Translations under genes and position numbers: made by a program
In this document: one piece after another, positions 3,910-59,001 of the stretch
Layout: each line of letters opens with the position of its first letter
Position numbering within the stretch: position 1 is the first letter of the stretch
Notes under the pieces: generated by a model
What the model saw: the letters and a program-made list of their open reading frames with translations, nothing else
Told to the model about the DNA's origin: nothing
The model's database searches: none
Origin: a virus
Strand: one strand, 5' to 3'
DNA length: 64,000 nucleotides
IMG/VR virus record: IMGVR_UViG_3300033512_000452
Location: 1 to 64,000 of that record

Positions 3910-3949
3910 GGTATATTCCTCCTTGGAATGAGTATGAGTTAGGAAGAGA

Positions 3950-7534: not shown

Positions 7535-7538
7535 GTAA

Positions 7539-7610: not shown

Positions 7611-7627
7611 TTTAAAAAGAGGGAAAT

Positions 7628-37500: not shown

Positions 37501-39040
37501 GATAATAGAGCTTTGTGCCAAAGCTGGCGTTTCGTGCAGTTCGAAGAAATTAATAAACAAATCCGTATTGATAGGGACGCCGTGGGATATTTACATTCCA
37601 GAAAGCTCTGTTTTTTGCAATTACGAATCATTCAACGCTGACGATAATATTATTGTCGTTGATGATTACTCTGATCTCCCTTCGTCTGGGGTTGCGGAGA
37701 TAGATGACGAGAATATTTATTACGGACAAAAATCAACACAAGAAAGGACTTTGTTCGAATCTTTTTTTGTTGAAAGTATTGGTGATATAGCATCTGGCAA
37801 TTTATCCTTAACAGGCCGACGTGTTTACTTAAAAGATTTTGACGCTGCGTCCGTAACTGTTTCACTGAAAGTTATTGTTGTGTCTGGAAAGGGATCTGGG
37901 CGCTCGTTTAATGTGTCTAATATTCCAGACACGTCAACTGATTCGTTTATTGAATTTAACGAAAACACGTCAAGTATACTCGATACAACCTCTAAAATAT
38001 CATTCGTGGTCACTGATAACACATTGGTAAATATCATTAGAGGCTACCAGGGCACTCGCCCAGCCACACACGAGAGTGGTACTATGTATATTCAGGTGAG
38101 CGAAAGTGGTCTTGTTAATGATGTTACAATTCGCAACAAGCGTAATTTTATAGTTGATTTAGAATACTTATTTGTTGGAGAGGAGGAGGTTGGTGTCTAT
38201 GGTTTGTCTTATGGAGATCAAGCTGTCATACTCACAGTGAACAGCAGTGGGGTTAGGTATTATAGCTACATTAACGGCGAAAAAACACTTATCGAACAAT
38301 TTCCATATCCATCTTCTGGCGGAAAAATAAAGATATCTTTATTTGAGGATACAATATCTATTTGGGTGAATAAGAAATTCGTTCATTCGTTTTATGTATC
38401 AGATAATCACTACACAGAGGTAAAGGAAAACGAATACTGCATGGGTCTAATTTCATCAGAGTCTGTTTCTGTTTTTTACTCTATTGACGAAATCAGCAAC
38501 AGGGTCGATAACTGCATTCTTGATATTGGACAGACCGGGGATCAAATTCTTACGTCTATTATTGGAGAGAAAAAAGTTTACACAAAAACAGCAGAAAATG
38601 GAGCTCTTGAAGTGTTTTTATCCAGAGACGAGATTGCTGAGGAGATAGAGGGATCTTTTGAGTTTGCTGAATCGTGGTCTGACGCTAACAGTTTCTCTCG
38701 TTTACGCGTTGAAGGGATTTCCTTTTGCGAGCGTTATGATGAATTTTTAATGCGTAATTACGGGAACACTTTTAGATTATTAAACTCCAACGAATCAAAC
38801 GAAGAGTACGAGATAATTAGTTTTGCTGATTTAGAGTTAAATGATATTGGTTCGAATGTTAAACTTGTGCGAATGCTTGGGTTTGCCGATCCAAGAGTTG
38901 AAGTGCACGATAAAATAAACACAACTAAAGGCCAAATACTTGTTGATTCAATTTCTTACTCATTTAACACAACGGAGCAAGATGTAACATTTGAATTTGA
39001 TATATCCGGCAGGGTTCCGAGAGAAAACATAGGTGAATAA
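34505..39040 (+). CDS. large tail tip / host-recognition protein (1511 aa)
   Basis: Position after the Dit-like gene; size fits. No motif recognised. Confidence 0.6.
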   Translation: MRNSSYKFSKSQKTKSKITIDDPLLRFSGFSINDYVVSNDGYYGYDSSSFDDTLLRIATVNSCTTRQLFYSYCDNLPGLSPWVNSDITVSFNSIPGLFGNRIFWQTADGKVHSAIITESGITDQVEIFTQSQELAIAPISETEFYAQYVTGVSKRVFYYNTATDVKHEWCGSLFAEKHSIKSFDAERVNDIDYVFTTDANGNRAVCLEVDVAGFSTPEWAEQYYVIPIDVVDVDSFFNPHFASVLNGNLFLTGHLARPASKGMLIYTKGPTWSLGKEMFIGFPANTYQTGKLHIIGDEVWYLGVDLLYKATATSYVGVDKSFEIDDFYDVRISKSANTADTISLIVKNADNIRPGMTLKFDGVINDKEYNYGIFDIDSINKQTNRDGQEIVLYGRSFPHKRLSQWVSDSSLDYWSQTKHNAMATDISKSIRKAGEWVTYDSGTDNENLRLRSIGDSIMYVSAKSSKNSTMAAKFKKLSTTATDYDGVSYGVGVNYYEETVLDAAERLDREIEDVDEDDQKYYGILALWGVKEHNGSEGISVYLVKKDAQTYITSVALSVPNQTDHWISIKWIDGHIFVYYRLDSSEEWLSIIDYLYDLEESPYITDTDQSGRGFVFGRVSEQSVSTTLFQDITFDASTIPVTSHQNFPDTGTIKIDDESIPYTSKGTLTETTTKYLSPAIIYRPDLAPTTTQWIWNKSDTANVTYTTHRVTPDLTANNSVLYGGINYYKTKITYPFDYSGKNLNVSIYLSKLSNVGSNLLFSAQDDSGNILANGSAKYVITTSIISAIHPSYSWVNFKIPGFTSDSAWFSVSNTEISIPYVAGSPTIYYFISTVNLSGNAPYTYGGPTYYRYYADTPGTNRVLSNTAINFKIELPTPGTQYYRLYLGNGYTSVNYMNDNLVVTSGTGIGRVFTNVGSGYNYVLVLEDTSTIDNTSSLKFFSQTTRSLNVFYVNRQSNSSIHLAGASVSLVENLTVESCPFSVTDTRYYSSEKDITVSDMIIELCAKAGVSCSSKKLINKSVLIGTPWDIYIPESSVFCNYESFNADDNIIVVDDYSDLPSSGVAEIDDENIYYGQKSTQERTLFESFFVESIGDIASGNLSLTGRRVYLKDFDAASVTVSLKVIVVSGKGSGRSFNVSNIPDTSTDSFIEFNENTSSILDTTSKISFVVTDNTLVNIIRGYQGTRPATHESGTMYIQVSESGLVNDVTIRNKRNFIVDLEYLFVGEEEVGVYGLSYGDQAVILTVNSSGVRYYSYINGEKTLIEQFPYPSSGGKIKISLFEDTISIWVNKKFVHSFYVSDNHYTEVKENEYCMGLISSESVSVFYSIDEISNRVDNCILDIGQTGDQILTSIIGEKKVYTKTAENGALEVFLSRDEIAEEIEGSFEFAESWSDANSFSRLRVEGISFCERYDEFLMRNYGNTFRLLNSNESNEEYEIISFADLELNDIGSNVKLVRMLGFADPRVEVHDKINTTKGQILVDSISYSFNTTEQDVTFEFDISGRVPRENIGE

Positions 39041-39781: not shown

Positions 39782-41608
39782 TTACATTTCTCCTTCCAAT
39801 TTATGGAATTCGCAAATAATGTTTGCGATTTCATTCCCGGGATAACCTTCATCATCAACGCTCACCGTCATGGAGTTCTTCCCTCCAGTCGGCTTACTGA
39901 AGATGTGGTGGCGATCTTTCGCTTCATATCTGTATCCTCCGACAATCATTGGCTGGAAAAGCGCCGTTCGCTTCCCTTCCGTGCCGGATACAAGGTGAAT
40001 GATCTCGTCAAATCCTTTCGGGAAGGTGTCTTTAAACCCACCTTGCAACGAGAACGTTTTGTATCCAGGTTTTGTATCATCGCCTTCTGTCTGTTTGATG
40101 TGGGAGATGACAACGACATGCACTGGCAGCGCCATCCATTGCAGAACGATTGGATAGACGACATTAAAGAGATCTCCCCATTCCTGGACCGTCATGCGGG
40201 TTTTCCCTTTTAGGACCCCATAGAACTTCTCATTCTCTTGGAATTGGTCAATACTGTCGATGATGACAGTTTTTACGGGGATAACCTTCTTTTCACCCTT
40301 GTAGTCGATGTGGTACATCAAAGACCCGTTCTCGAGTTTGGAGTTGTTCAACTCGGCTAACTTTTGGCTGAGAACACTCTTGGTGTTTGCTGAAGGTTCG
40401 ATTGTGATCCGGTTTGCCCTAGCCGATCCCGATCCTTTTTCGAGATCTAAAAAGAGCGGATCTGGCATCGTAGCAGAGAGCCGAGTGTTGTGCGTTACGA
40501 TATAGTTGTCTGTAACATATAACTGGTTTTCAGAATCCAGCATGATGCACTGCGCCTCTTTTTGGCCTATCTTTTCTATTGATTTGATGTAACGATATGG
40601 AGGATATTTTGATCCAGGGTTGTATTTGTCAGCTTTTCTCTGGAGCCTGAACGGGCTCACATCTCTAGGCAAGGATACAGTGATTCTATAAGACTCCCTG
40701 CAAGGAATTCTTATGCTATTTTTTATATAACTAGAAGATCTTTTTACAACCTTTGCCACTCCTCCAATTGACTGAATCAACTCAATAACATCTTCGGAAA
40801 GCAACCTAGACGAAGTTGAAAATTCAACGTTTGCTTTTGATGGATACCCATCTGTGTCAAATAAGCCCTGTAGAATCGCCACTCGGTTGTTAAATGTTGA
40901 GTATTTATATTTATGAGGAATGAATTTTTCGTGACTGTATAATCCCCACAAACTCAAATCCTCCAGCATCACCTTGACTGGATTTGGATGCGATGTTCTG
41001 TTCTCTTTTCTAATCGAAAAGTTGCAACCTTGAATATTTTTAACAATTATTCCATCTGGGACGTTACGTCGCAAATGATCGATTAATTCAGTATCCGATT
41101 TACTAAACATTGGCGTATTACGTGTAAATCCACCATCCCCAAGCAAAAGACCGAGTGTGTACGGATCAATATCCAATGTTTCTTGTTGGTCGAAGTCGAA
41201 TTTTTTTATCATCGGGACGAATTGAAATCTATTCCTAGATAAAGTATCCATTTTTGAAAGAATCTCCGACGTGCTCCTTACAGACCATCCTCTCTTATTT
41301 TGTCGTTGGTCGTGATGTTGAACAGTCCATAAGTGTTCTGCGCAAGCCTCTGTGCTAAACCGATCATTGAAGTTGATCTTATAAATTTCCTTCTTCCCCT
41401 GCGGGAATACTCCAACAATAGTTGCTTTACCTCCGTCTGGATTAATTACTTTATCTCCTACTTTCGCATCTCCCATTCTCATCCAACCATCAGGGGTAAG
41501 AATTTTTGATTCAAGGCTTTGAGCCTTACCGGCGCCAGGTGCGCCAAGTATGCAAATTCTAGCCGGTCCATAATTCGGCTTTTCTGCGTCTGGAAAATAA
41601 AAAGTCAT
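39782..41608 (-). CDS. Sak4-like (AAA_24/RecA-fold) recombination ATPase interrupted by an intein
   Basis: Joining the exteins gives ICILGAPGAGK|TRLSATMPDPLFLDLEKG, which restores the Walker A GxxGxGKT. VIIDSIDQF is Walker B-like. Confidence 0.8.
   Translation of the reverse strand: MTFYFPDAEKPNYGPARICILGAPGAGKAQSLESKILTPDGWMRMGDAKVGDKVINPDGGKATIVGVFPQGKKEIYKINFNDRFSTEACAEHLWTVQHHDQRQNKRGWSVRSTSEILSKMDTLSRNRFQFVPMIKKFDFDQQETLDIDPYTLGLLLGDGGFTRNTPMFSKSDTELIDHLRRNVPDGIIVKNIQGCNFSIRKENRTSHPNPVKVMLEDLSLWGLYSHEKFIPHKYKYSTFNNRVAILQGLFDTDGYPSKANVEFSTSSRLLSEDVIELIQSIGGVAKVVKRSSSYIKNSIRIPCRESYRITVSLPRDVSPFRLQRKADKYNPGSKYPPYRYIKSIEKIGQKEAQCIMLDSENQLYVTDNYIVTHNTRLSATMPDPLFLDLEKGSGSARANRITIEPSANTKSVLSQKLAELNNSKLENGSLMYHIDYKGEKKVIPVKTVIIDSIDQFQENEKFYGVLKGKTRMTVQEWGDLFNVVYPIVLQWMALPVHVVVISHIKQTEGDDTKPGYKTFSLQGGFKDTFPKGFDEIIHLVSGTEGKRTALFQPMIVGGYRYEAKDRHHIFSKPTGGKNSMTVSVDDEGYPGNEIANIICEFHKLEGEM
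40487..41524 (-). mobile_element. intein (346 aa) with LAGLIDADG homing-endonuclease domain; class-3-like (WCT) features
   Basis: Starts AQSLESKILTPDGW and ends YIVTHN, followed by Thr as the +1 residue. Two LAGLIDADG motifs (LGLLLGDGGF, LQGLFDTDGY). Block B EHLW, block F Cys (AQCIMLD), and Thr before HN. Confidence 0.8.
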
Positions 41609-43002: not shown

Positions 43003-44391
43003 CTAGAATTCGATTTCACGGTATGAGTTGATACGCCGCCATTCACGAGGTAGCGTTTTAAAATCATTAGTATGCTTGTGGTAAGCAACCTCTTCTGTAT
43101 CCCCTGTCTTTCCAATTGAGTTTTTAAGTACAGCAAACTTGATCACGTCTACGACGATCTTATCCATGCCCACAAAAGCGCCGCCTTTATCGACGTTTTC
43201 AGGGAACTTCATCAAGTCAGATTCCGTCGCTTCTTGGGAGTATGGCGCTACGATCTTCTTCGCTGCCTGCTCCCCGGCGTAGAGGATATCTGCCATCGTT
43301 GGACGCTTTCCTCTCGGGGCGCTTTGGTTGTACCCTTCCCGTTTTAATTGACTGGTCACAATGACCGGGATCCCCGTTTCCTGTGCGATTGAGCGTAACT
43401 GCTGAGCGGCCTGCAAGACCACTTCGTATTTGCCGCTGTCTGCGCCGCGGATAAGCTGGAGGTAATCCAGTTGGATTATTTTGATATCTTCGTGCCTTGC
43501 TAACTCCGAGCGAATGAACATGGTAACTTCGTCAATCGTTTCGATCCCCATGTCTTTGATGTAAAGAGGTAGGTTGATAATCTTCCCTCTCGCTTCCGCC
43601 ACGGCTTCCAGTTCCTGCTCGGAGAGATTTCTTGGGTCGCGGATCTTTGCGTTGTTAATCCCTGTAAGCATGGCGAGCGAGTTGATCATAAAATAGTCAT
43701 GCGGGTTTTCGAAATTAAGCACCAGTACGCCATTTCCGTCCATAGCTGTGTGCAGAGCTTCGTAGCGCAGGATGGTAGATTTGCCGCCGCCGGGACGAGA
43801 CGGGATAATCACAAAATCCCCCTGGTCCACAAAGTCAACAATTTTCTGGATGGCTTGGATTCGAAAATACCACGGCACCTTTGTCATGTTTCCCTGGCGC
43901 AGCCCTTCAAATCGCTCGTCGAACTCCGGCAGCATTTCTCCGATAGCCATTGCGTTCTCATGCTTGCGGCGCCGCAAAGAGATCAACTTCTGAGTGTACA
44001 GAGCTATGATCTCTTCTGGTTTCTTCCCGTTCTTCGTGTCAGCACTCATCAAAGCGGCGTAATGTCCGATCTGGCGTTTTAAAGAGAGCTCCTCTACTTT
44101 GTCAGCAGAAGTGATAATTGACAGCGGATCTGCACGTCCCTTTAGATATTCCAGGTACGCTTCTCCGCGGTTCTTGATACTTCCAATCGTATCTAGCGTT
44201 CCATTTTCTCGCATAGTTTCTGTAACAGTGCGCATGGTTACAATCCCTGATTTTTGCACCTCAAGGATTGTCTTCCATATTTCTTTGTTCGATTCGACAA
44301 CAAAGTCACCCGGCGATAGGTGACTTGTTTCTGGGATACAACCATGGTCGACCAATACTGATCCAATAACCGTCTCTTCCCATTCACTCAT
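43003..44391 (-). CDS. dnaB: replicative DNA helicase, DnaB family
   Basis: Walker A PSRPGGGKST, QLDYLQLI, and VTSQLKREG (SQLxR-like). 462 aa. Confidence 0.85.
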   Translation of the reverse strand: MSEWEETVIGSVLVDHGCIPETSHLSPGDFVVESNKEIWKTILEVQKSGIVTMRTVTETMRENGTLDTIGSIKNRGEAYLEYLKGRADPLSIITSADKVEELSLKRQIGHYAALMSADTKNGKKPEEIIALYTQKLISLRRRKHENAMAIGEMLPEFDERFEGLRQGNMTKVPWYFRIQAIQKIVDFVDQGDFVIIPSRPGGGKSTILRYEALHTAMDGNGVLVLNFENPHDYFMINSLAMLTGINNAKIRDPRNLSEQELEAVAEARGKIINLPLYIKDMGIETIDEVTMFIRSELARHEDIKIIQLDYLQLIRGADSGKYEVVLQAAQQLRSIAQETGIPVIVTSQLKREGYNQSAPRGKRPTMADILYAGEQAAKKIVAPYSQEATESDLMKFPENVDKGGAFVGMDKIVVDVIKFAVLKNSIGKTGDTEEVAYHKHTNDFKTLPREWRRINSYREIEF

Positions 44392-46509: not shown

Positions 46510-46800
46510 TTACTTCAAAAGGCGTTTGTTGAATGGTGGTATGTTTGGCCGTTCTTGTGTGTAACTTTTTCCATCTAAGGCGTAAGTGATCCACTGTTCG
46601 CCTTCGAAATCACCACCAAGTTCGAATAACACTCCGGGATGTTTCGCGCTGAATGACGCCATGGATACTTCTTCGTCACTGAAATGCTCTTCGCAGCAGC
46701 CGATAAGCGCTCCAACTGAGATGTATTTTTCGACTTCTTCGTTTTCGTCAACCGTTCCGTTGTTTTCAAATTTTAAATAATAATAAGGTCTTGAGCTCAA
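46510..46800 (-). CDS. hypothetical protein
   Basis: ORF track entry. Confidence 0.6.
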   Translation of the reverse strand: MSSRPYYYLKFENNGTVDENEEVEKYISVGALIGCCEEHFSDEEVSMASFSAKHPGVLFELGGDFEGEQWITYALDGKSYTQERPNIPPFNKRLLK

Positions 46801-47381
46801 TTTATCCCTTCCTTTTCTTTGATTTTGTTGATTTTATCCTGGTAGCGCCAAAACCACTTCTCTCGAAATGCGCTTGGGATCATGTAGGCTGGGAAGTCGT
46901 CTTTGGTGTATTGTCCATTGTAGCGATCTTGAGCGTCCAGCATATCGGTTGCGTGAAACCCAAACTGAGCAAAAGTATTTCCGATCGTAAGGCTTGCCGC
47001 ATAACTCGTAAATGCGCTAAGTTCTCCAGTCCAGTGATTAACATACCCGACGTCCCCTAAACCGGCGCATTTACACACACCGATTCCCATTCGCCCAATC
47101 GTACTGCGGGCTTTCATTTCCGCAACGACGCCGTTCACGCAGCCGATAATTTCCTTCGTCACGCAAAGCATGGTTGAATTTGGCGAGATAGAAACATCCT
47201 CTCCGTCCTTGTAATACTCCGGCTCCGAGTAGGTTAACTTTCCATCATGCCAACAAACGCCGACAAACCAATTCCCCAGGCGAACATCGTAACTGTTCGG
47301 GTTGAGTTGTTCTTCATTGAATGGCTCAATAACGATCAATCCTTTTTTTATGTACTCTCTGATACTTGTTTTCCCTAACAT
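46797..47381 (-). CDS. dcd: dCTP deaminase family protein
   Basis: Start at the ATG at 47381 after AGGAGA. MLGKTSIREYIKKGLIVIEPFNEEQLNPNSYDVRLG is a classic Dcd N-terminus. AEMKARSTIGRMGI also present. Confidence 0.8.
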   Translation of the reverse strand: MLGKTSIREYIKKGLIVIEPFNEEQLNPNSYDVRLGNWFVGVCWHDGKLTYSEPEYYKDGEDVSISPNSTMLCVTKEIIGCVNGVVAEMKARSTIGRMGIGVCKCAGLGDVGYVNHWTGELSAFTSYAASLTIGNTFAQFGFHATDMLDAQDRYNGQYTKDDFPAYMIPSAFREKWFWRYQDKINKIKEKEGIN

Positions 47382-47481
47382 AGATCTCCTTGAAAATGTA
47401 ATAAAAATTGCCAGTAACAATCACCTTATTTATTGTATCACGTTAGTTACTTTTTAACGAACAGGCGAATCTTAAAACTTT

Positions 47482-47755
47482 TGAGTGTGATTTGAGTGTG
47501 AATTGGTATAAAACGTATGCGAAACGTGTGTTTTGTAGACGATTAAGCACAAGATATTGTGCTGTAACACGTTTGGGACACCATATATGGGGTACTAACG
47601 AATTTCCGTTAGACTGTGGATCAAGTGGTTGCGGGTTCGATCCCCGTCATCCACCCCAAATATGGGGGTATAATTGAAGAAAGTGACCTGTATATAGGAT
47701 TTTGGGGTAAAATAGAAAGGATGTTCTACGGTTTGAGTGTGAATTGAGTGTGAAT
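47482..47755 (+). other. candidate attP: arm-type 11-mer repeats flanking a tRNA-His 3' half
   Basis: TGAGTGTGATT and TGAGTGTGAAT at 47482-47503; TGAGTGTGAAT twice at 47734-47755, in the same orientation. The tRNA-like core lies between them. ATATGGGG(G)TA direct repeats at 47585 and 47660. Confidence 0.6.
47609..47658 (+). other. 3' half of a tRNA-His-like sequence (anticodon arm to CCA); not a complete tRNA
   Basis: TTAGA-CTGTGGA-TCAAG (anticodon GTG, G37); variable TGGTT; T-arm GCGGG-TTCGATC-CCCGT; acceptor 3' strand CATCCAC; discriminator C; encoded CCA. No matching 5' acceptor strand or D-arm upstream. Confidence 0.65.
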
Positions 47756-47799
47756 TGAAAAAACACCTTTCAAACTTCCCCCGCTTTCTTAAATGCCAT

Positions 47800-48063
47800 T
47801 TAAGGATCATTTCTAAAATACCCCAAAAATGCAAAGGTTATTGCGCCGATAAGTTGCCCATAGATGTTGACAGTCCTTTTAAAGTCCGGCGGTGTGCCAT
47901 CGGCGTGAACGTACTGGATTCTGTAACCCTGTTTAACCGCCTCCTTTTCAAGGCTCGCTAAATCCTCTTTGGTATCCCCTTCGCCGAGGAATTTTCCGTA
48001 GGGATCATCGTCCGTGTATCCATACAGCGCCCAGGACGGTTTAAATTGGTTATTCATATTCAC
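47800..48063 (-). CDS. hypothetical protein with C-terminal hydrophobic segment
   Basis: ORF track entry. Confidence 0.6.
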   Translation of the reverse strand: MNMNNQFKPSWALYGYTDDDPYGKFLGEGDTKEDLASLEKEAVKQGYRIQYVHADGTPPDFKRTVNIYGQLIGAITFAFLGYFRNDP

Positions 48064-48073
48064 TCCTCCTTTT

Positions 48074-48385
48074 TTATCTCATCGAAAGTTCTTCGACGAT
48101 ATACCCGTCTACGACTGCTCCGAAATCGTAGACGGGATTTTCGGTTAACTGGTCAACCCAGATCGTATCGTTGTCCAGACGCACTATGGCGCCGCCGTGG
48201 TCTTTGCAGATCCACATCTGTTTCCCGATCCATATTTTTGTTTCGAATGGAATGTCCTGCGGGCAGGCGATTGCTCTGTCAACCCATTCCTGCCAGCGCT
48301 CCCCGTTGCTCATCCTGGAGATACATTCTCCGTTCACAAAGTTGGAGCAATTCGTTCCACCGAGCCACGGTTCGTAGTGCGACAC
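48074..48385 (-). CDS. hypothetical protein; possible 3D/DPBB-like (cell-wall-active) fold
   Basis: The segment AIACPQDIPFETKIWIGKQMWICKDHGGAIV...IWVD is weakly reminiscent of 3D-domain proteins. Confidence 0.5.
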   Translation of the reverse strand: MSHYEPWLGGTNCSNFVNGECISRMSNGERWQEWVDRAIACPQDIPFETKIWIGKQMWICKDHGGAIVRLDNDTIWVDQLTENPVYDFGAVVDGYIVEELSMR

Positions 48386-48426
48386 TTTTACTTTGACGGT
48401 CTGGACAAGACGCAGTTTAGCCCTAT

Positions 48427-48660
48427 CTAGTTCTGGGTCAATTCCTGAGAGGGCGGCTGAGGGAAATTATTGGACCCATCATTCATTACAACAGTGGCGT
48501 TCAGAATGAGATCCACTGCCCCATCCCCGTTAATGTCGGCGAATACGTTCTGCACGCTTTCACGCTCCGGTGTGGCCACGTAGAAGATCGATGCGGTGAC
48601 GGTGACGATGAGGATGACAACTGCGATCATAACAATTAAACTCTTTTTTTCTTTAGACAT
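48427..48660 (-). CDS. signal-anchored small protein with DxNxDGxxD calcium-binding-like motif
   Basis: Start at the ATG at 48660 after AAGGAG. MSKEKKSLIVMIAVVILIVTVTASIF...ADINGDGAVDLI. Confidence 0.55.
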   Translation of the reverse strand: MSKEKKSLIVMIAVVILIVTVTASIFYVATPERESVQNVFADINGDGAVDLILNATVVMNDGSNNFPQPPSQELTQN

Positions 48661-48676
48661 TTTTTGCTCCTTTAAA

Positions 48677-48903
48677 TTATATGATTCCATCGAAGGGGAC
48701 GAGTCCGCACCCTTCGCCGTACATGTAGATCTGTGGGTCTGTTCCACCTCTACCGTTACTGAATTGGTAGAAGTCGGTTGTTCCATCGTTGTGGTGCCAG
48801 ACAGCGTCAGTGTCTATGCTGTGGTTGACGATGCCCCAAGAAACCGCCCCTGGGCTGTCCTCTTTGAAAGTGGCTGCGCTTGCCGCAGTTATTGGTATGA
48901 CCA
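48677..48903 (-). CDS. hypothetical protein (75 aa)
   Basis: Start at the ATG at 48903 after AAGGAGGAAUAAAAC. Confidence 0.55.
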
Positions 48904-48935
48904 TTGTTTTATTCCTCCTTGTTAATGTTTTATTT

Positions 48936-48980
48936 AAAAAGGCGCGGCGGGACTCGAACCCGCCTGCTGCCATCTCGCCT
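48936..48980 (-). terminator. tRNA-like minihelix (acceptor-like stem + T-arm) followed by a U-run
   Basis: Minus-strand RNA: AGGCGAG-AUGGCAGCAG-GCGGG-UUCGAGU-CCCGC-CGCGCCU-UUUUU. Confidence 0.55.
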
Positions 48981-48984
48981 ATTT

Positions 48985-49872
48985 TTATCCTGTACCTGAT
49001 CCAATCATTCCCTTGTTAACCAGACGTTCTTCCTGGCGTGAAACGTAGTCAGCAACGTAATCGTTAAACTCGTTGGATACTACCGCTGGATTCGTTGCGG
49101 GTTTGTAGTAGAACTTTTTAGGGAATTTATCCTTCTTGCCTTTCTTCCCGTAAGTGAGGTAGTTAAACGATAAATCCTCAATGACCCCAAGATCGTCCTG
49201 GAAATCGTAGCGTTCAGCGTTTTTCAAAGATAGGATCTTATCTACTTTCTCTATCGTCTTACTGAGTTCTTCTGTTTTGATGTATTCTTGGCAGGTGTGC
49301 TCATTGTAATAACCCACTGAGAGGTTCACGGAAGCAAGATCGAATGCTGGTGACAATATGGATATGTCTGAAAACGTTCCGTGATTTAATTTAAATCCGT
49401 TGCCGAGAATGAAGTCTTGAAACTCTTTATTTCCGCAATCGTAGAACACAGCGTCGTCTTTTCCGTGCCGGTCCAACTGGATCATATAGTTCACCGTTGG
49501 GCCTCCTGGGAAATCAGCGACAAACGCAGACGCTCCATAACCTCCGCTTTCTTCGTAGTCCGTGAAAAGAATGTGCGGTCGGTGTTTCTTGAGCAACTTC
49601 AGGATTGCGTAAACACCGCACCTGTCATCGCCGCCAATTCCCTCCGGGGACCAAAGCACGCCCTCTTCCTGGTCGTGATAGATCTTTTCCGGTTTGGTGT
49701 CGTGGACAGTATCCACGTGAGCCACCAGCATGACTGGCAGCGTTCCTGGGGCGTACACATAATCCTCGAAGTTGTATACGGTCTTGTATCCGTAGGTCAC
49801 TTCGAGTGTTTTCGCCAAAGTGTTTTTAAGATGAAACTCGTTCATCATCAGCATTTCTTTGAATACCTTCAT
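48985..49872 (-). CDS. zinc metallopeptidase, M20/M28/M42-like
   Basis: Start at the ATG at 49872. VAHVDTVH, GGDDRCGV, DYEESGG, TFSDIS and YNEHT occur in the order of co-catalytic zinc peptidases. Confidence 0.65.
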   Translation of the reverse strand: MKVFKEMLMMNEFHLKNTLAKTLEVTYGYKTVYNFEDYVYAPGTLPVMLVAHVDTVHDTKPEKIYHDQEEGVLWSPEGIGGDDRCGVYAILKLLKKHRPHILFTDYEESGGYGASAFVADFPGGPTVNYMIQLDRHGKDDAVFYDCGNKEFQDFILGNGFKLNHGTFSDISILSPAFDLASVNLSVGYYNEHTCQEYIKTEELSKTIEKVDKILSLKNAERYDFQDDLGVIEDLSFNYLTYGKKGKKDKFPKKFYYKPATNPAVVSNEFNDYVADYVSRQEERLVNKGMIGSGTG

Positions 49873-49873
49873 G

Positions 49874-51274
49874 TTAATAGTCACAATCATCACCCTCTTC
49901 CTCTTTCTCTCTGCAATACTTACACAGAAACGAATCATCATTCTCGTTGATATCATCACCGCATTTTAAGCAAGTGATGTCATCGCCGACCATGAATTTA
50001 TTGTCATCTGTTTTGAAATTCTTGTTCACAATTAAATGATGGTCGTAACCTTCATTGCAATCATGGTATAAACAAGTGGAATACGCCTCGTATCCATCGA
50101 CAGGGTCTGTACCACTCGACACTACCCATTTGTTTTGTACACCGGCGTACTCGGAAACCCTCTCTTCGAGCATCTCCCTGGCGACTCTTGATACGTTATC
50201 AATTTTAGTTGGATACTGCCGACTGAAAATCGCAGCCGATGTGTTTTTATCGAAGTAAACGCACTGCCGCCAGCTCTTGCTGTTCCCGCTGAACTTCACG
50301 TTTTTATCGTGATAATCAACGTCATTCGCACCGCTCTTGAAGGCGATTAAGGTAGCGTCGTCAACCATCGCAGATAACGCCCCCGTGGCGTAGCAGCCTT
50401 CTCCGATTTTGTGGCAGGATGACCAGTCGTAAGCGTTGTACGACATCGTCAGGTAATCGTAAGGGTCAATCGAGATGGAAACATTAGCGTTGACACTCCT
50501 GTTTGATAAAGTCAACGAAACAGCGTCATCAAAGGCTTTGTCGTTTAACAGGTTAGACAAGAACTTGCTCAACTTCATTTCTCTGTTGAACATCGCGCCG
50601 CAAAATTTCTCAAAATGAGAGTTCGAAAAGCACTGATTTAATTGCCAGCTTTCAGTAGTGAACGCTGTAATAATGGTGGAGTATTGCGGGAACAGATAGC
50701 ATAACTCGATAATTTTTGTTCGCATTGAGGTTCCGTCTATTGCAATATCAACGCCTTTTCTGATTGATAACTCTTTCCCGAACATGAGATAAAACTCGTA
50801 CTTCGAGCGCGCCCATCTCGTTAGGTATCTGTCAACTACGTTATTACTGAGATCCTTCATTCCGAAACCATCGTAATTAGCGCCGATAACCATGAGCTTT
50901 TTAAGTCGAGTTTTATCGACTCTGGAGATCATTTCATCTAAGAGGCCCTCGTTTGCTGACGCATTTATCGAAAGGTATTCCATGACACCGTCATCTTCTG
51001 GTGTAATTTCCGTTTGAGCGTTGGCAAATTCCAGCATATCCAACGAGATGTTGTAGTATTCTTTGTTGAATATACATTCATAGCCTACGTTAATTCTGTC
51101 CATCATGCTTTCGTCAACGACTACGGTATCGCCACAGAATTGCTCCATTGAATCAGACCATCCGCAGCGGACTGAACTGTGGCGCAGTACGTAAGGGTTG
51201 CGAAACCTGAGGACGTCTCCGATCTTAATGCCCTCAAGGCGATGTGGGATGCCAGTAGATGAATTATTTTCCAT
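49874..51274 (-). CDS. hypothetical 466-aa protein with C-terminal zinc ribbon
   Basis: Start at the ATG at 51274 after AGGAGGAAAC. CLKCGDD...CKYC. Its stop abuts the peptidase start (TAACATG). Confidence 0.65.
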   Translation of the reverse strand: MENNSSTGIPHRLEGIKIGDVLRFRNPYVLRHSSVRCGWSDSMEQFCGDTVVVDESMMDRINVGYECIFNKEYYNISLDMLEFANAQTEITPEDDGVMEYLSINASANEGLLDEMISRVDKTRLKKLMVIGANYDGFGMKDLSNNVVDRYLTRWARSKYEFYLMFGKELSIRKGVDIAIDGTSMRTKIIELCYLFPQYSTIITAFTTESWQLNQCFSNSHFEKFCGAMFNREMKLSKFLSNLLNDKAFDDAVSLTLSNRSVNANVSISIDPYDYLTMSYNAYDWSSCHKIGEGCYATGALSAMVDDATLIAFKSGANDVDYHDKNVKFSGNSKSWRQCVYFDKNTSAAIFSRQYPTKIDNVSRVAREMLEERVSEYAGVQNKWVVSSGTDPVDGYEAYSTCLYHDCNEGYDHHLIVNKNFKTDDNKFMVGDDITCLKCGDDINENDDSFLCKYCREKEEEGDDCDY

Positions 51275-51314
51275 ATTCGTTTCCTCCTGATTATTTTTAA
51301 TAATTACATTCTTG

Positions 51315-51330
51315 TTTCCGGCGCCGGAAA
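51315..51330. repeat. exact copy of the 16-bp palindrome
   Basis: Lies between the int terminator and the gene starting at 51274. Confidence 0.95.
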
Positions 51331-51354
51331 TCATTCCTCACGGCTCCTCAAATA

Positions 51355-51385: not shown

Positions 51386-52516
51386 TTACTCAACAGGTAT
51401 TCTTTTTAGGAATTCGAATTCAACAGGCGTGACCAATTCAGTCATCTTGCGAGTTAAATCGTCCTGTCCTGTGGCGATCAGATGACCATAGATGTCCATT
51501 GTGATACTTGGCTTTGAGTGTCCAAGCGTTCTGGAGATCGTGGTAATTGATGCGCCGGTATTGATCATGTGAGACGCTGCGGTATGGCGAAGATCATGGA
51601 AGCGGATCTTCTTAACCATCGCTGTTTTTAATTCTTCCTTGAATTCAGCAAGCAGAGCGGAGTGGTCCATTGGCGTTCCGATCGTTGTGCAGAACACCAA
51701 ACCAAAATCTTTCCACCTGTTTGCAAAGAAAGCCTTTTCGTAATTCTGGCGTTCTTTATGCTCCCTTAGGATTTGAATCGTCTGCTCCAGTATCCTTATG
51801 GTTCTGATTCCAGATTTTGTTTTCGGCGCCACGAAGGATTGCAATCCATGTTCTAATTGGCGCTGAATTAAAATCGTCCCTCTCTTGAAGTTGATATCAG
51901 TCCACATCAGACCTAACAACTCACCCTGCCTCATACCGGTTAATATCGCCAGGTGATAAAGCGCCTTGTTGCGAGATTCTTTGGTTGAGATAAGGAATTG
52001 CATAATCTCATCTTCTTCGAGGATGTTCATTTCGCCGTGCTCGTAAGAGGGCTTATCCACGTAATTTGTTGGATTAATAGGAATAAGCCCTCTTTTCGTG
52101 GCGTCCTCCAGGCAGATATGCAGAACTTGATGGATATACTTTCTCGTGCGAGCTCCGACTTCCAGTGAGTCGTAATAATCTGATATTGTGTCTATTTTCA
52201 ATTCAGACAGTTTGTAACCACCGATATCCGGCACGATATAATCATCGACGTAATGCTGGTATGATTTTGCTGTGCTTTCTCTGATCGCCTGCCTGTGGGC
52301 TTTCATCCATGACGCGGCGAATTCAGCTAAGGTAATCTTTGACGTATTAAAGGTTAATCCTCTGACCTGCTGCCCTTTAATTTCTTTGAGCCAATTGCGA
52401 GCGTCCGTTCTCGTCTCGAAAACCTTCGTTATCCTTGCGCCGTCAATGTATATCTGTGCCCTGAACATATCGCGCTGTTTGAAAATTGATCCTTCCCCTT
52501 CGTTCTTCTGTCTCAT
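51386..52516 (-). CDS. int: tyrosine recombinase / phage integrase
   Basis: C-terminal RFHDLRHTAASHMI...LGHSKPSITMDIYGHL gives R, HxxR, H and Y. N-terminal SAM-like domain. Confidence 0.9.
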   Translation of the reverse strand: MRQKNEGEGSIFKQRDMFRAQIYIDGARITKVFETRTDARNWLKEIKGQQVRGLTFNTSKITLAEFAASWMKAHRQAIRESTAKSYQHYVDDYIVPDIGGYKLSELKIDTISDYYDSLEVGARTRKYIHQVLHICLEDATKRGLIPINPTNYVDKPSYEHGEMNILEEDEIMQFLISTKESRNKALYHLAILTGMRQGELLGLMWTDINFKRGTILIQRQLEHGLQSFVAPKTKSGIRTIRILEQTIQILREHKERQNYEKAFFANRWKDFGLVFCTTIGTPMDHSALLAEFKEELKTAMVKKIRFHDLRHTAASHMINTGASITTISRTLGHSKPSITMDIYGHLIATGQDDLTRKMTELVTPVEFEFLKRIPVE

Positions 52517-52704
52517 TGGGCAAGCTGGTCTTCAAGATACTTCTTGAAAGTGTAATCCGGGACCCGGATTGCAACGCCCAACTTCACACAGGGAAGTTCT
52601 CCGCTTCTGATGATCTTGTAGATCATTGCTTCCGATGCGTTCAGTATCTTAGCGATCTCCTGGACGGTCAGGAATTTTGGATATTCGGTGGTTGCTTCAG
52701 TCAT
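52513..52704 (-). CDS. xis: excisionase-type HTH protein
   Basis: LTVQEIAKILNASEAMIYKIIRSGELPCVKLG fits the MerR/excisionase HTH_17 pattern. Overlaps int. Confidence 0.75.
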   Translation of the reverse strand: MTEATTEYPKFLTVQEIAKILNASEAMIYKIIRSGELPCVKLGVAIRVPDYTFKKYLEDQLAQ

Positions 52705-52993: not shown

Positions 52994-53503
52994 TTAATTG
53001 TCGAACACAAAGACGGTATGCTCGGAGCTGTGAACAAAAGTGACATCGCCGTTGTATTCCCAATCACTCGCCATCTTATCGTAGTCGATGTAGTCTTCGA
53101 GGTGTTTTGGGATTTCATCGCCAGTCTCTTTGGTGAATTCTTCCGCGTAGTCCTCTTTTGAAGGATACTCTCCACGATAAGAATCGTCGAAACCATCCAG
53201 CGTGGCGTAATGATCACCAACAACTCCTACGTAAGTGGCGAAGGCTTCTTCGTGTTTATTTATTCCAGCCGTAAGCATAGCGAGATGCTCAATGTCGATG
53301 TACTGATCAATCTTGAGATCGTAGTATCCTTCCGTGTCGCCGACGTAATACTCTTCGTTTTCGGGGAGCAATACAGATTTGATTGCCTCTTGTATTTCAT
53401 CGATCAGATCATCTTCGGATTCGCCGTCGAACTCGAACCATTCTCCAGTGAGGTTGCCGGAATTGTATTCAGCAAGATCTCCGATCCAAACTTTTGTTGT
53501 CAT
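52994..53503 (-). CDS. ardA: antirestriction protein ArdA
   Basis: MTTKVWIGDLAEYNSGNLTGEWFEF and LEDYIDYDKMASDW...VFVF match the conserved N- and C-terminal ArdA signatures. Very acidic. Confidence 0.85.
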   Translation of the reverse strand: MTTKVWIGDLAEYNSGNLTGEWFEFDGESEDDLIDEIQEAIKSVLLPENEEYYVGDTEGYYDLKIDQYIDIEHLAMLTAGINKHEEAFATYVGVVGDHYATLDGFDDSYRGEYPSKEDYAEEFTKETGDEIPKHLEDYIDYDKMASDWEYNGDVTFVHSSEHTVFVFDN

Positions 53504-53805
53504 TGATCCTCTTCCTCCCAATAGAATTTGATATCGTCAAGAAGTTTTGGTTTCTCATTCTTGACTTTGTGGATATGGATTTTCACTAGAATCTCTCTGC
53601 AAGCCGCTTCCCCGATAGAGAGTCTCTTCGGGAGATAACCGTGTTTCTTTATAAGCCGGTTATTCATGTTCGTGATCAGCGCTTTTGTTTGACTGTCAAT
53701 TTGCTTCTTCTCATCATCTGGAAGGTTTTTGTACGTTTCCTCGATGGATTTATTGAGAAGTTTTGCTTGCTCAGGGTTGGACGGCTGGTAGATTTTTCTT
53801 CTCAT
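53500..53805 (-). CDS. hypothetical protein
   Basis: ORF track entry. Confidence 0.6.
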   Translation of the reverse strand: MRRKIYQPSNPEQAKLLNKSIEETYKNLPDDEKKQIDSQTKALITNMNNRLIKKHGYLPKRLSIGEAACREILVKIHIHKVKNEKPKLLDDIKFYWEEEDQ

Positions 53806-54122
53806 TCTATTCTTGAGTCCCCTTTCAGTGTGCCCTTTATTGCTCTGGCGTTGAGTTTATCGAGGTTCTGTGTGGCAACTTCGTTTAGGGTAATATTGAG
53901 GACAGTGGCGATTGCTGCTGCGTACCAGAGAACATCGCCGAGTTCGTCGACCATCTTGTTCCAGCGTTCTGTACGGACTTCATTATCATCGTCCCGTATG
54001 ACTTTCTTGGCTTGATTGCAAAGCTCCCCCGCTTCCCCGGCTAAACCGAGAAAGCAGTAGGAGAAATTATTGCCATAGATGGCGGTTGTGTGAGCGAGTT
54101 TTTGGTAGGCATTCATATCCAT
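53802..54122 (-). CDS. mazG: MazG-like nucleotide pyrophosphohydrolase
   Basis: GLAGEAGELCNQAKK...ELGDVLWYAAAIA...NLDKLNAR. Confidence 0.8.
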   Translation of the reverse strand: MDMNAYQKLAHTTAIYGNNFSYCFLGLAGEAGELCNQAKKVIRDDDNEVRTERWNKMVDELGDVLWYAAAIATVLNITLNEVATQNLDKLNARAIKGTLKGDSRIE

Positions 54123-58862: not shown

Positions 58863-58931
58863 ATAACTCCGCGGGAGGGCAGTGAGAAGCTGCCCTCCCA
58901 AGCAAATAAGGAGAGAAATGAATAAGACCAA

Positions 58932-58960
58932 ATTGTAACATTGTTGATACCCTCTGTCAA
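58932..58960 (-). promoter_or_regulatory. consensus promoter TTGACA-17 bp-TACAAT (leftward)
   Basis: -35 is the reverse complement of 58955-58960; -10 is the reverse complement of 58932-58937, with TGn upstream. Confidence 0.7.
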
Positions 58961-58964
58961 TCGT

Positions 58965-58994
58965 TTGACACAAACGTATAAAGTGTGTTACAAT
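58965..58994 (+). promoter_or_regulatory. consensus promoter TTGACA-18 bp-TACAAT (rightward), probably giving a leaderless mRNA
   Basis: -35 at 58965-58970 and -10 at 58989-58994 with TGT upstream. The ATG at 59002 is 8 nt after the -10 and has no SD. Confidence 0.7.
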
Positions 58995-59001
58995 ACCCTC
59001 T

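What the first reader, a model, noticed from the sequence alone, without database searches (positions are those of the whole stretch)
47482..47755. Candidate attP: tRNA-His 3' half flanked by two tandem pairs of an 11-bp arm-type repeat
47609-47658 reproduces a tRNA-His from the anticodon arm to the 3' end. It has anticodon GUG, G37, a canonical T-arm, the discriminator C73 typical of tRNA-His, and an encoded CCA. It lacks any 5' acceptor strand or D-arm.

TGAGTGTGA(A/T)T occurs twice at 47482-47503 and twice at 47734-47755, all in the same orientation. The left pair ends about 105 bp before the fragment and the right pair begins about 75 bp after it. ATATGGGG(G)TA direct repeats at 47585 and 47660 bracket the fragment.

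This is the classic architecture of an attP that integrates into, and regenerates, the 3' end of a tRNA gene. The site is about 3.7 kb from int rather than adjacent, with cargo genes between them.
Basis: partly seen in the sequence, partly recalled or inferred. Interest (0 to 1): 0.7.

Follow-up and report, generated by a model that had tools for sequence, protein, structure and literature searches.

The report
Phage attP targeting host tRNA-His
This 380-bp gap between genes is almost certainly the site an uncultured phage uses to insert itself into the histidine-tRNA gene of a Chloroflexota bacterium; it is a standard design, useful mainly because it names the host.

Summary

- **The site.** 47612-47658 is the 3' part of a tRNA-His gene. 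It runs from the last two bases of the 5' anticodon stem to CCA. No 5' half is present. Four exact copies of TGAGTGTGA(A/T)T flank it, as one tandem pair on each side.
- **The host.** The fragment is 40-45/47 identical to tRNA-His genes of nine Chloroflexota MAGs. Those genes are 39-45/47 identical to each other. They carry the CTTGA/TCAAG anticodon stem that the fragment requires. No 47/47 host was found.
- **The enzymes.** A complete tyrosine integrase with an arm-binding-type N-terminal domain lies at 51386-52516 (-). An HTH_17 excisionase-type gene lies at 52513-52704 (-).
- **The relatives.** Elements whose integrases are 38-48% identical (57% over a partial one) have the same layout around tRNA-Leu, Val, Arg or Lys. 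The order is tRNA part, a CCATATATGG-type palindrome, then tandem arm repeats. In four relatives the tRNA is a complete gene, the predicted attL form.
- **The geometry.** The arms start 78-80 nt after the discriminator base in 7 of 9 sites, 78 nt here.
- **What differs.** In most relatives the arms abut the int stop codon. Here 3.6 kb of cargo genes separates them.

This is a new member of a known kind. No lysogen junction was found.

The parts
47482..47503 (+). P-arm: tandem pair of 11-bp arm-type repeats (TGAGTGTGATT TGAGTGTGAAT)
   Evidence: Exact copies exist only here and at 47734-47755 in the 64-kb window. Homologous tandem pairs flank the tRNA fragments in L121 and L122.
47578..47594 (.). 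Imperfect palindrome ACACCATATATGGGGTA, the upstream copy of the family's CCATATATGG-type motif. Role unknown.
   Evidence: (I6, D6). The motif is found only in the att region of the window.
47612..47658 (+). Common core: 3' part of tRNA-His(GUG), from the last 2 nt of the 5' anticodon stem through the anticodon loop, variable loop, T arm, acceptor strand, C73 and CCA
   Evidence: A 35-nt stretch is identical to many complete tRNA-His genes. Identity is 45/47 to the best genes and 40-45/47 to nine Chloroflexota tRNA-His genes. Every base of the core is seen in at least one of the nine. Chimeras with a host 5' half fold as tRNA-His.
47614..47620 (+). Anticodon loop CTGTGGA: the inferred strand-exchange (overlap) region
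   Evidence: This is an inference. Identity to real tRNA-His begins at 47612, just 5' of the loop. tRNA-His fragments in two unrelated elements (L055, L085) start at the same place. Anticodon-centred att sites are the commonest class in Islander (PMC4383910). Not tested directly.
47653..47670 (.). Imperfect palindrome ACCCCAAATATGGGGGTA. Its left half is the tRNA 3' end. Family-conserved motif, role unknown.
   Evidence: A motif of this type lies 0-40 nt 3' of the tRNA part in the family sites read for it. It follows only 1 of 130 ordinary tRNA-His genes.
47734..47755 (+). P'-arm: tandem pair of 11-bp arm-type repeats (TGAGTGTGAAT x2)
   Evidence: The pair starts 78 nt after the discriminator base. 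The same distance is 78-80 nt in six of eight relatives.
47800..51334 (-). Cargo between attP and int: five ORFs (87, 103, 119, 324 and 486 aa). The 324-aa product is M28 peptidase-like and the 486-aa product matches phrog_18912. These genes would lie at the attL end of the prophage.
   Evidence: In most relatives the arm repeats abut the int stop codon instead.
51386..52516 (-). Tyrosine integrase, 376 aa, heterobivalent type
   Evidence: PF00589 E = 8.7e-28 and PF14659. R196, K232, H307, R310, H333 and Y343 are invariant in the family alignment. The N-terminal region folds as three strands plus a helix. PF14657 matches 15 of 45 family members. Foldseek finds Tn1549 Int and full-length lambda Int.
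52513..52704 (-). Excisionase-type (recombination directionality factor) gene, 63 aa, overlapping the int start
   Evidence: PF12728 HTH_17, E = 9.5e-12. The same HTH_17-int gene pair occurs in L135, L136, L138, L140 and L142.

Best explanation
47482-47755 is the attP of a temperate tailed phage of a Chloroflexota host.

- **Binding.** The phage integrase (51386-52516, -) is a lambda-type tyrosine recombinase. Its N-terminal domain binds the four TGAGTGTGA(A/T)T arm sites. Its core-binding and catalytic domains bind the core at 47612-47658.
- **Recombination.** The folded attP complex pairs with the host tRNA-His gene. The strands are exchanged at or next to the anticodon loop (CTGTGGA).
- **Products.** At attL, the phage copy of the tRNA 3' part replaces the host's, so an intact tRNA-His gene is regenerated. 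The palindrome, the P' arm pair, the 3.6-kb cargo, int and xis then follow it. At attR, the displaced host 3' part sits next to the P arm pair and the dCTP-deaminase/replication genes.
- **Excision.** Excision would need the HTH_17 protein encoded at 52513-52704.

Shown here: the sequence features, their match to real tRNA-His genes, the integrase type, and the conservation of the layout in relatives, including integrated ones.

Inferred: integrase binding to the arm sites, the exact crossover position, the identity of the host species, and present-day activity.
For: 1. **Arm repeats.** Four exact arm repeats occur only here.
2. **The fragment is tRNA-His.**
   - 35 nt are identical to many complete tRNA-His genes, and 45/47 to the best ones.
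   - The phage fragment is as close to nine Chloroflexota tRNA-His genes (40-45/47) as they are to each other (39-45/47).
3. **A prediction was met.**
   - The phage 3' stem strand TCAAG demands a host 5' strand CTTGA.
   - A GTDB scan that specified the anticodon loop, TCAAG, the T loop and the acceptor strand, but not the 5' stem strand, returned nine genes. All nine carry CTTGA and all are Chloroflexota.
   - The named integrase homologues are also Chloroflexota/Anaerolineales.
4. **Chimeras fold.** A host 5' half plus the phage 3' part gives a canonical tRNA-His. The phage DNA alone gives none.
5. **The integrase is complete.** It has all catalytic residues and an arm-binding-type N-terminal domain, and an HTH_17 gene sits beside it.
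6. **Comparative evidence.**
   - L121 (Leu-UAG) and L122 (Val-UAC) have an arm pair, a tRNA 3' fragment starting at the anticodon arm, and a second arm pair.
   - L123 and L135 have a tRNA-Arg 3' part followed by an arm pair.
   - L136 and L138 (tRNA-Arg) and L140 and L142 (tRNA-Lys) are integrated forms. Each has a complete tRNA gene, then a palindrome, then 2-4 tandem arm repeats, then the int stop codon.
   - The distance from discriminator to first arm is 78-80 nt in 7 of 9 sites, 78 nt here.
   - The arm sequences are related: GAGTGTGAAT, GTGAGTGAAT, GAGTGCAATT, GGTGCAATT, GCGAGCAATT.
7. **Orientation.** The tRNA part and int converge, as in every relative.
8. **The design is textbook.** A 30-45 bp common core covering the tRNA 3' half, flanked by pairs of arm-type sites, is described for mycobacteriophages (PMC10865867).
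Against: - **No exact host.** No host tRNA-His with a 47/47 match was found. A 40-nt exact pattern gave 0 hits in GTDB species representatives and in IMG/VR.
- **No junctions.** No lysogen or attL/attR junction of this phage is known. The closest other integrase is only 48% identical over its full length.
- **Unusual position of int.** int is 3.6 kb from attP, whereas the arms abut int in most relatives.
- **No binding data.** Integrase binding to the repeats is not demonstrated. N-terminal-domain similarity did not track arm similarity in a six-member comparison (inconclusive).
- **Weak symmetry at the core.** The 5' flank of the core (TTAGA) is only weakly symmetric with TCAAG.
- **An unexplained motif.** The conserved palindromes are not accounted for by the simple model.
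Confidence: 0.88

Rival explanations
1. It is an attP of this family, but strand exchange occurs at the palindrome that overlaps the tRNA 3' end (ACCCCA-AATA-TGGGGGT, 47653-47670), not in the anticodon loop. The two inverted half-sites would serve as the core-type integrase sites.
For: - A CCATATATGG-type inverted repeat sits at or just after the tRNA 3' end in the family sites read for it, whatever the tRNA.
- It has the shape of a tyrosine-recombinase core: inverted half-sites around a 4-6 bp A/T spacer.
- In L123 and the window the right half is complementary to the tRNA's own 3' end.
- One ordinary-looking tRNA-His locus (L131) carries the palindrome.
Against: - A crossover at the 3' end would leave no selection for the element to carry the 45 nt of tRNA upstream of it. 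Yet the attP forms in the window, L121 and L122 all keep an undecayed tRNA part that starts at the anticodon arm.
- The position of the palindrome varies from 0 to about 35 nt after the tRNA.
- The window and L138 each have two copies.
Confidence: 0.07
2. It is a replication origin or a regulatory region. The 11-bp repeats would be iterons or operator sites for a replication or repressor protein, and the tRNA-like piece would be a decayed phage tRNA gene or a relic of past recombination.
For: - The site lies among replication and nucleotide-metabolism genes: dCTP deaminase 46797-47420, DnaB 43003-44391, primase 57936-59063.
- The region is A+T-rich, 30-39% G+C over much of 47300-47800.
- The phage does encode one tRNA, tRNA-Thr at 7538.
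- int is not adjacent to the site.
Against: - The same repeat/tRNA-part/repeat layout, with related repeat sequences, is tied to the integrase gene in relatives. Several of these are non-phage integrative elements with different replication genes or none.
- The fixed 78-80 nt distance to a tRNA end makes no sense for an origin.
- The fragment shows no decay relative to real Chloroflexota tRNA-His genes.
Confidence: 0.03
3. It is a relic attP that no longer works, stranded when 3.6 kb of cargo was inserted between it and int.
For: Separation of int from the P' arm is the exception in this family. No lysogen is known.
Against: - The four arm repeats are identical except for one A/T position.
- The core shows no decay.
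- int keeps all catalytic residues and xis is intact.
- Distance between int and attP has no known effect on a trans-acting recombinase (established knowledge of lambda-type systems).
Confidence: 0.05

Closest known systems
Mycobacteriophage tyrosine-integrase attP sites (L5 type; Boilgate, Omega and others in PMC10865867)
   Same: [quoted passage not shown] Pairs of arm-type sites flank the core. The integrase has an N-terminal arm-binding domain (PMC10865867). The window has a 47-bp core and one tandem pair on each side.
   Different: The host phylum is Chloroflexota, not Actinomycetota. There is no detectable sequence relationship beyond the superfamily. int lies 3.6 kb from attP. A conserved CCATATATGG-type palindrome is present, which I do not know from the mycobacteriophage sites. 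Nothing has been tested experimentally here.
Phage lambda attP (P-C-O-C'-P') and lambda Int
   Same: The integrase is heterobivalent. The model aligns with full-length lambda Int over about 360 columns (1z1b, 1z1g). Tandem arm-type sites lie on the int-proximal P' side. The gene order is xis then int.
   Different: Lambda's attB is not a tRNA gene and its core is 15 bp. Lambda's arm sites are arranged P1, P2 | P'1-P'3 with mapped IHF, Xis and Fis sites. No IHF-consensus site was identified here.
Tn916/Tn1549 integrase (PDB 6EMY/6EMZ/6EN0)
   Same: This is the closest solved structure by sequence (E = 1.8e-12) and by fold (E about 1e-13). It also has an N-terminal arm-binding domain and an HTH-type Xis partner (from my knowledge of Tn916).
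   Different: Tn916-type elements insert into A/T-rich targets with heteroduplex coupling sequences, not into tRNA genes with a long common core.
Anticodon-centred tDNA islands (Williams 2002 classification; Islander database, PMC4383910)
   Same: The identity block runs from the anticodon loop to the tRNA 3' end. The regenerated gene and its displaced fragment mark the island ends. 2083 of 3919 Islander islands are anticodon-centred. Within one integrase subfamily several tRNA identities are used, and that is seen here: His, Leu, Val, Arg and Lys.
   Different: For this phage only the attP form is available, so the sublocation is inferred rather than mapped.

Membership tests
attP of a lambda-type (heterobivalent) tyrosine integrase | A tyrosine recombinase with the complete catalytic set (R, K, H-x-x-R, H/W, Y) encoded by the same element | tested here: met
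   PF00589 E = 8.7e-28. R196, K232, H307, R310, H333 and Y343 are invariant in a 45-member alignment and align with the Tn1549 Int active-site motifs.
attP of a lambda-type (heterobivalent) tyrosine integrase | An N-terminal arm-binding domain on the integrase | tested here: met
   The AF2 model has three beta-strands (residues 10-33) plus a helix (36-51), with pLDDT about 80-87. PF14657 Arm-DNA-bind_4 matches 15 of 45 family members, best E = 7.3e-6. The window protein itself matches only at E = 0.098, below the cut-off. Full-length lambda Int aligns over about 360 columns.
attP of a lambda-type (heterobivalent) tyrosine integrase | Repeated arm-type sites on both sides of the core, distinct from the core sequence | tested here: met
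   There are 2 + 2 exact 11-bp repeats, present only here in the window. Homologous tandem repeats sit at equivalent positions in nine relatives.
attP of a lambda-type (heterobivalent) tyrosine integrase | The integrase actually binds the arm and core sites | not testable with these tools
   This needs EMSA or footprinting. A test for covariation between the N-terminal domain and the arm sequence on six members was inconclusive.
attP of a lambda-type (heterobivalent) tyrosine integrase | Inverted core-type sites flanking a 6-8 bp overlap | tested here: inconclusive
   The anticodon loop (7 nt) is flanked by TTAGA and TCAAG, with only 3 of 5 positions symmetric. In the host gene the stem is perfectly symmetric, CTTGA/TCAAG. 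The cleavage sites are unknown.
attP of a lambda-type (heterobivalent) tyrosine integrase | A recombination directionality factor (Xis) gene | tested here: met
   A 63-aa HTH_17 protein (PF12728, E = 9.5e-12) overlaps the int start. The same gene pair occurs in five relatives. Its function was not tested.
tRNA-gene-targeting att site that regenerates the tRNA 3' end | The element carries a copy of the 3' part of a tRNA gene without the 5' part | tested here: met
   ARAGORN finds no tRNA at the site. 47612-47658 matches real tRNA-His genes at 45/47, with 35 nt exact.
tRNA-gene-targeting att site that regenerates the tRNA 3' end | The host 5' half joined to the element's 3' part forms a functional-looking tRNA | tested here: met
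   Three chimeras are called tRNA-His(GTG) by ARAGORN with canonical arms. The acceptor stem is perfect with a GTGGATG host and has one G-T pair with a GTGGGTG host.
tRNA-gene-targeting att site that regenerates the tRNA 3' end | A host genome carries a tRNA gene identical to the core, at least across the overlap region | tested here: inconclusive
   Nine Chloroflexota tRNA-His genes are identical across 47612-47625, which covers the loop and the 3' stem. Over the whole core the best is 45/47. No 47/47 match exists in GTDB representatives. The metagenome scan was truncated.
tRNA-gene-targeting att site that regenerates the tRNA 3' end | attL and attR junctions are observed in a lysogen | not testable with these tools
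   The databases hold no close relative of this phage; the best other integrase is 48% identical over its full length. attL-type junctions were seen only for distant family members: L136, L138, L140 and L142.

The most novel reading that the evidence does not exclude
The CCATATATGG-type palindrome, with half-sites ACCCC(C)A and TGGGG(G)T, may be a previously undescribed cis element of this Chloroflexota integrase family.

It lies at or just after the tRNA 3' end in the family att sites read for it, whichever tRNA is targeted and whichever arm sequence is used. It could be the binding site of a conserved accessory protein, either the HTH_17 Xis or a host bending factor. In that case it would be the functional analogue of lambda's H' site. 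Alternatively it could be a second recombination or processing signal.

Its presence after one otherwise ordinary tRNA-His gene (L131) would then be the footprint of a past integration.
Probability: 0.3. Interest if true: 0.45.

Novelty: new member of a known kind. Interest (0 to 1): 0.3.

Why it matters
- **Host assignment.** The site assigns an uncultured phage on a 75-kb metagenomic contig, which has no close relatives in the phage collections searched, to Chloroflexota, probably an Anaerolineae-like lineage. As far as I know this phylum has very few characterised phages.
- **Lifestyle.** It marks the phage as temperate and predicts the exact prophage ends. The 47800-51334 cargo would sit next to the regenerated tRNA-His.
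- **A family of integrases.** The comparison defines an integrase family in Chloroflexota mobile elements that switches among tRNA-His, Leu, Val, Arg and Lys targets. It keeps a fixed geometry throughout: about 79 nt from the tRNA end to the tandem arm sites, plus a conserved palindrome. This could help map islands in Chloroflexota MAGs, and it could supply integration tools for a phylum in which, as far as I know, genetic tools are scarce.
- **Mechanism.** Nothing here departs from the known lambda/L5 paradigm.

Tried and rejected
- **Close relatives in phage GenBank records.** Megablast of 46800-48400 found nothing. A portal-protein tblastn found only a 24%-identity hit to a Streptomyces phage.
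- **Exact-match scans with the core.** The 40-nt pattern gave 0 hits in IMG/VR and in GTDB. A 22-nt pattern gave 0 hits in IMG/VR.
- **Metagenome scan.**
It therefore could not show whether an exactly matching host exists.
  - None of those tRNA-His loci encodes a relative of this integrase.
  - The GTDB tRNA-His loci do not either.
- **Exact-protein look-up of the integrase.** It found no contig. The cluster look-up gave no accession or sample name.
- **Search for attR.** I looked for the displaced tRNA fragment in the 10 kb upstream of int in L136 and L138. None was found, so those elements are longer than the fetched flank.
- **Covariation test.** I asked whether similarity of integrase N-terminal domains tracks similarity of arm repeats. 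No clear pattern emerged with six members.
- **The alternative site at 48936-48980.**
  - It is a T-arm-like GC hairpin followed by a T-run on the minus strand, downstream of the peptidase-like gene.
  - No tandem repeats lie nearby, and there were no matches in IMG/VR.
  - I rejected it as an attP of this integrase.
- **Small ORFs across the att region.** 47595-47834 (-) and 47492-47677 (+) have no Pfam match. I treated the region as non-coding.
- **Williams 2002 (PMC100330).** It could not be read. It is cited from the Islander reference list and from memory.
Full report
**1. What is in the sequence**

The finding lies in a 380-bp gap between two minus-strand genes. One is a dCTP deaminase (46797-47420; PF22769, E = 1.8e-28). 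The other is a small ORF at 47800-48063. The gap contains these features:

- Two tandem copies of TGAGTGTGA(A/T)T at 47482-47503.
- An imperfect palindrome, ACACCATATATGGGGTA, at 47578-47594.
- A tRNA-like stretch ending in CCA at 47658.
- A second palindrome, ACCCCAAATATGGGGGTA, at 47653-47670. Its left half is the tRNA 3' end.
- Two more tandem copies of TGAGTGTGAAT at 47734-47755.

The four 11-mers are the only exact copies in the 64-kb window. I estimate about 0.06 would be expected by chance. ARAGORN finds no tRNA here. Rfam recognises only the T arm. Both results are expected for a fragment without a D arm and 5' acceptor strand.

**2. The fragment is a real tRNA-His 3' part**

A metagenome scan used the T arm plus acceptor strand as the pattern. 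Nearly all hits are complete tRNA-His genes with the G-1 / C73 signature.

- The commonest hit is identical to the phage over 47624-47658 (35 nt).
- The same gene matches 47612-47658 at 45/47.
- The two differences, at positions 38 and 41, include one side of an anticodon-stem pair.

The phage 3' stem strand TCAAG would need a host 5' strand CTTGA. I therefore predicted a host anticodon arm CTTGA-CTGTGGA-TCAAG. A GTDB scan specified the anticodon loop, TCAAG, the T loop and the acceptor strand, and left the T stem and variable loop free. The 5' stem strand was not part of the pattern. The scan gave nine hits.

- All nine are complete tRNA-His genes.
- All nine carry CTTGA.
- All nine come from Chloroflexota MAGs: Anaerolineaceae, Anaerolineae, Anaerolineales, 'Chloroflexia' and Ca. 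Aquidulcis.

The phage core is 40-45/47 identical to these genes. They are 39-45/47 identical to each other. Every phage base occurs in at least one of them. The fragment therefore looks like the tRNA-His 3' part of a Chloroflexota species that has not been sampled.

Identity to real genes begins at 47612 (GA + loop). The three preceding bases are phage-specific. Joining a real host 5' half to the phage 3' part gives a sequence that ARAGORN calls a canonical tRNA-His.

No 47/47 host was found. The 40-nt exact pattern had no hit in GTDB representatives or in IMG/VR.

**3. The recombinase**

The window is a tailed phage. It encodes a terminase, a portal and a major head protein on the plus strand, followed by a long minus-strand array of replication and accessory genes.

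The only integrase is at 51386-52516 (-).

- It matches PF00589 (E = 8.7e-28) and PF14659.
- R196, K232, H307, R310, H333 and Y343 are invariant in a 45-member alignment. They align with the Tn1549 Int active-site motifs.
- The AlphaFold model (pLDDT 84) has an N-terminal three-stranded sheet plus a helix at residues 10-51.
- Fifteen of 45 family members match Pfam's Arm-DNA-bind_4. The window protein itself reaches only E = 0.098.
- Foldseek returns Tn1549 Int and full-length lambda Int.

A 63-aa HTH_17 (excisionase-type) gene at 52513-52704 overlaps the int start.

The integrase has no close relative. The best other full-length protein among 5.8 billion is 48% identical. The named homologues are from Chloroflexota/Anaerolineales. 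This agrees with the tRNA evidence.

**4. Comparative evidence (the strongest line)**

I read the DNA next to the integrase genes of distant relatives. These integrases are 38-48% identical to the window's over their full length. One further relative, L123, is partial and is 57% identical over 93 residues.

*Unintegrated (attP) forms, both viral contigs:*

- L121 has GGTGCAATCT x2, then a tRNA-Leu(UAG) 3' part starting at the anticodon stem, then CCCATATATGG, then GGGTGCAAT(T/C) x2.
- L122 has GTGAGTG-type x2, then a tRNA-Val(UAC) 3' part starting in the anticodon loop, then GACCCCCATATATGGGGGTC, then GTGAGTGA(T/A)T x2.

*Partial sites:*

- L123 and L135 show a tRNA-Arg 3' part, a palindrome-like motif and an arm pair.

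*Integrated forms in Chloroflexota MAGs:*

| Locus | Complete tRNA gene |
|---|---|
| L136 | tRNA-Arg |
| L138 | tRNA-Arg |
| L140 | tRNA-Lys |
| L142 | tRNA-Lys |

- In each, the tRNA gene sits where the fragment sits in the attP forms.
- After the tRNA gene come the palindrome, usually a terminator hairpin, 2-4 tandem arm repeats and the int stop codon.
- An HTH_17 gene lies upstream of int.
- Host genes lie beyond the tRNA.
- This is the predicted attL.

*Shared geometry and sequence:*

- The number of bases between the discriminator and the first arm repeat is 78 in the window. It is 78, 79, 80, 79, 79 and 79 in L123, L135, L136, L138, L140 and L142. It is 73 in L121 and 101 in L122.
- The arm sequences are visibly related: GAGTGTGAAT, GTGAGTGAAT, GAGTGCAATT, GGTGCAATT, GCGAGCAATT.
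- The tRNA part and int converge in every case, including the window.

A layout this constant, tied to the integrase gene across phages and non-phage integrative elements, cannot be a replication origin or a chance relic.

**5. Mechanism**

The site fits the standard model for heterobivalent tyrosine integrases.

- The N-terminal domains bind the arm pairs, which have an 11-bp period and so lie on the same face of the helix.
- The core-binding and catalytic domains bind the core.
- The attP complex captures the host tRNA-His gene.
- Strands are exchanged across a 6-8 bp overlap.

I place the overlap in or next to the anticodon loop (47614-47620) for four reasons:

- Identity to real genes starts just 5' of the loop.
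- The attP forms of L121 and L122 also start at the anticodon arm.
- Two unrelated tRNA-His att fragments (L055, L085) start at the same GACTGTGG.
- Anticodon-centred sites are the commonest class in Islander, 2083 of 3919 islands (PMC4383910).

This step is inferred, not shown.

After integration the phage-supplied 3' part completes the tRNA at attL. The 47800-51334 cargo, int and xis follow it. The displaced host 3' part lies at attR next to the P arm and the dCTP deaminase gene.

**6. Comparison with known systems**

The design is that of mycobacteriophage L5-type attP sites. Those have a 30-45 bp common core covering the tRNA 3' half, so that the tRNA is rebuilt at attL. Pairs of arm-type sites flank the core, and the integrase has an N-terminal arm-binding domain (PMC10865867). 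More generally it is the lambda paradigm.

Use of several tRNA identities within one integrase subfamily is also a known pattern. It is described by Williams 2002, which is cited in PMC4383910. I could not read that paper itself.

This is a new member of a known kind.

**7. What is not ordinary**

*(a) The gap between int and attP.* int and attP are 3,630 bp apart, with five ORFs between them. These include an M28-peptidase-like protein and a phrog_18912 protein. In seven relatives the arm repeats lie within about 35 bp of, or overlap, the end of the int gene. In L121 they are about 300 bp away. Cargo appears to have been inserted at the position that becomes the prophage end.

*(b) The CCATATATGG-type palindrome.*

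- Half-sites ACCCC(C)A / TGGGG(G)T accompany the tRNA end in the family sites I read for it. The tRNA identity and the arm sequence both vary among those sites.
- The window has two copies, and further TGGGGTA half-sites at 47703 (+) and 47819 (-).
- Among 130 ordinary tRNA-His loci, only L131 (Ca. Aquidulcis) has the motif downstream.
- Its role is unknown. It could be an accessory-factor or Xis site (the analogue of lambda's H'), a structural hairpin, or, less likely, the crossover site itself.

**8. Limits**

- No lysogen of this phage was found, and no exactly matching host tRNA-His.
- No binding or recombination data exist.
The absence of a perfect host match is therefore weak evidence.

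**Verdict**

My confidence that this is a functional attP for a Chloroflexota tRNA-His gene is about 0.88. Interest is low to moderate, because the mechanism is textbook. The value lies in the host assignment and in the description of a Chloroflexota integrase family.

Noticed in passing
window 48936-48980 (hairpin 48946-48964, minus strand): A tRNA T-arm look-alike (GGCGGGTTCGAGTCCCGCC, then GCGCC and TTTTT) lies downstream of the peptidase-like gene. It scores as an intrinsic terminator. No arm repeats are nearby and it has no match in IMG/VR. It may be a plain terminator or a relic of another tRNA-derived site.
   Followed up: partly
window 23177-33970 (+) and 34505-39040 (+): A 3,597-aa ORF follows the head and tail genes, and a 1,511-aa ORF follows it. 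Neither has any Pfam or PHROG match. If the first is a tape-measure protein it is exceptionally long.
   Followed up: partly
window 39782-41608 (-): A 608-aa protein has a Sak4-like/AAA_24 ATPase part at residues 375-566. It also carries a LAGLIDADG homing-endonuclease segment (PF14528 at residues 243-292; Hom_end at 230-312). PHROG hits over residues 17-380 go to unrelated proteins (terminases, primase, a helicase loader). This pattern suggests an intein.
   Followed up: no
window 47700-47722 and 47806-47828: A 23-nt inverted repeat (83% complementary) brackets the P' arm pair and the stop codon of ORF 47800-48063. Each arm contains a TTTTGGGGTA half-site of the family palindrome (I1).
   Followed up: no
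L131 4140-4170 (Ca. Aquidulcis MAG, DYIZ01000024.1): An apparently ordinary tRNA-His gene is followed after 8 nt by a perfect CCCCCATATATGGGGG palindrome and then a terminator hairpin. No arm repeats or integrase lie within 4 kb, and a PqqD-like gene follows. This may be the footprint of a former element of this integrase family.
   Followed up: partly
L140 4191-5750 (5.4-Mb Chloroflexota contig): Two integrase genes with the same Pfam domains (PF14659 + PF00589) face each other across one tRNA-Lys(CTT) gene. Each has its own tandem repeats next to it (GGGTGCAACC x2 and TACCGTAGCA(G/A)T x2). A CCCCCATATATGGGGG palindrome lies on the 5' side of the tRNA as well. These may be two elements sharing one target.
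   Followed up: no
L123 280-1000: A second tyrosine-recombinase gene ends about 60 bp before a tRNA-Arg 3' fragment that starts only at the variable loop. This may be a hybrid or tandem att site.
   Followed up: no
L055 and L085 (soil metagenome contigs): These carry tRNA-His 3' fragments starting at GACTGTGG, with non-tRNA sequence on the 5' side, in high-G+C contexts. No relative of this integrase is present (L085 has what looks like the 3' end of a different integrase gene upstream). tRNA-His from the anticodon loop onward is therefore used as a target by unrelated elements too.
   Followed up: partly
window 7538-7611 (+); 52994-53521 (-); 53802-54122 (-): The phage encodes a tRNA-Thr(UGU), an ArdA anti-restriction protein and a MazG-like pyrophosphatase. 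The phage tRNA is not tRNA-His, so the tRNA-dependent lysogeny scheme of PMC10865867 does not apply.
   Followed up: no
window 2001-4000: G+C content is 51%, against 38-48% in the rest of the window. I did not examine this.
   Followed up: no
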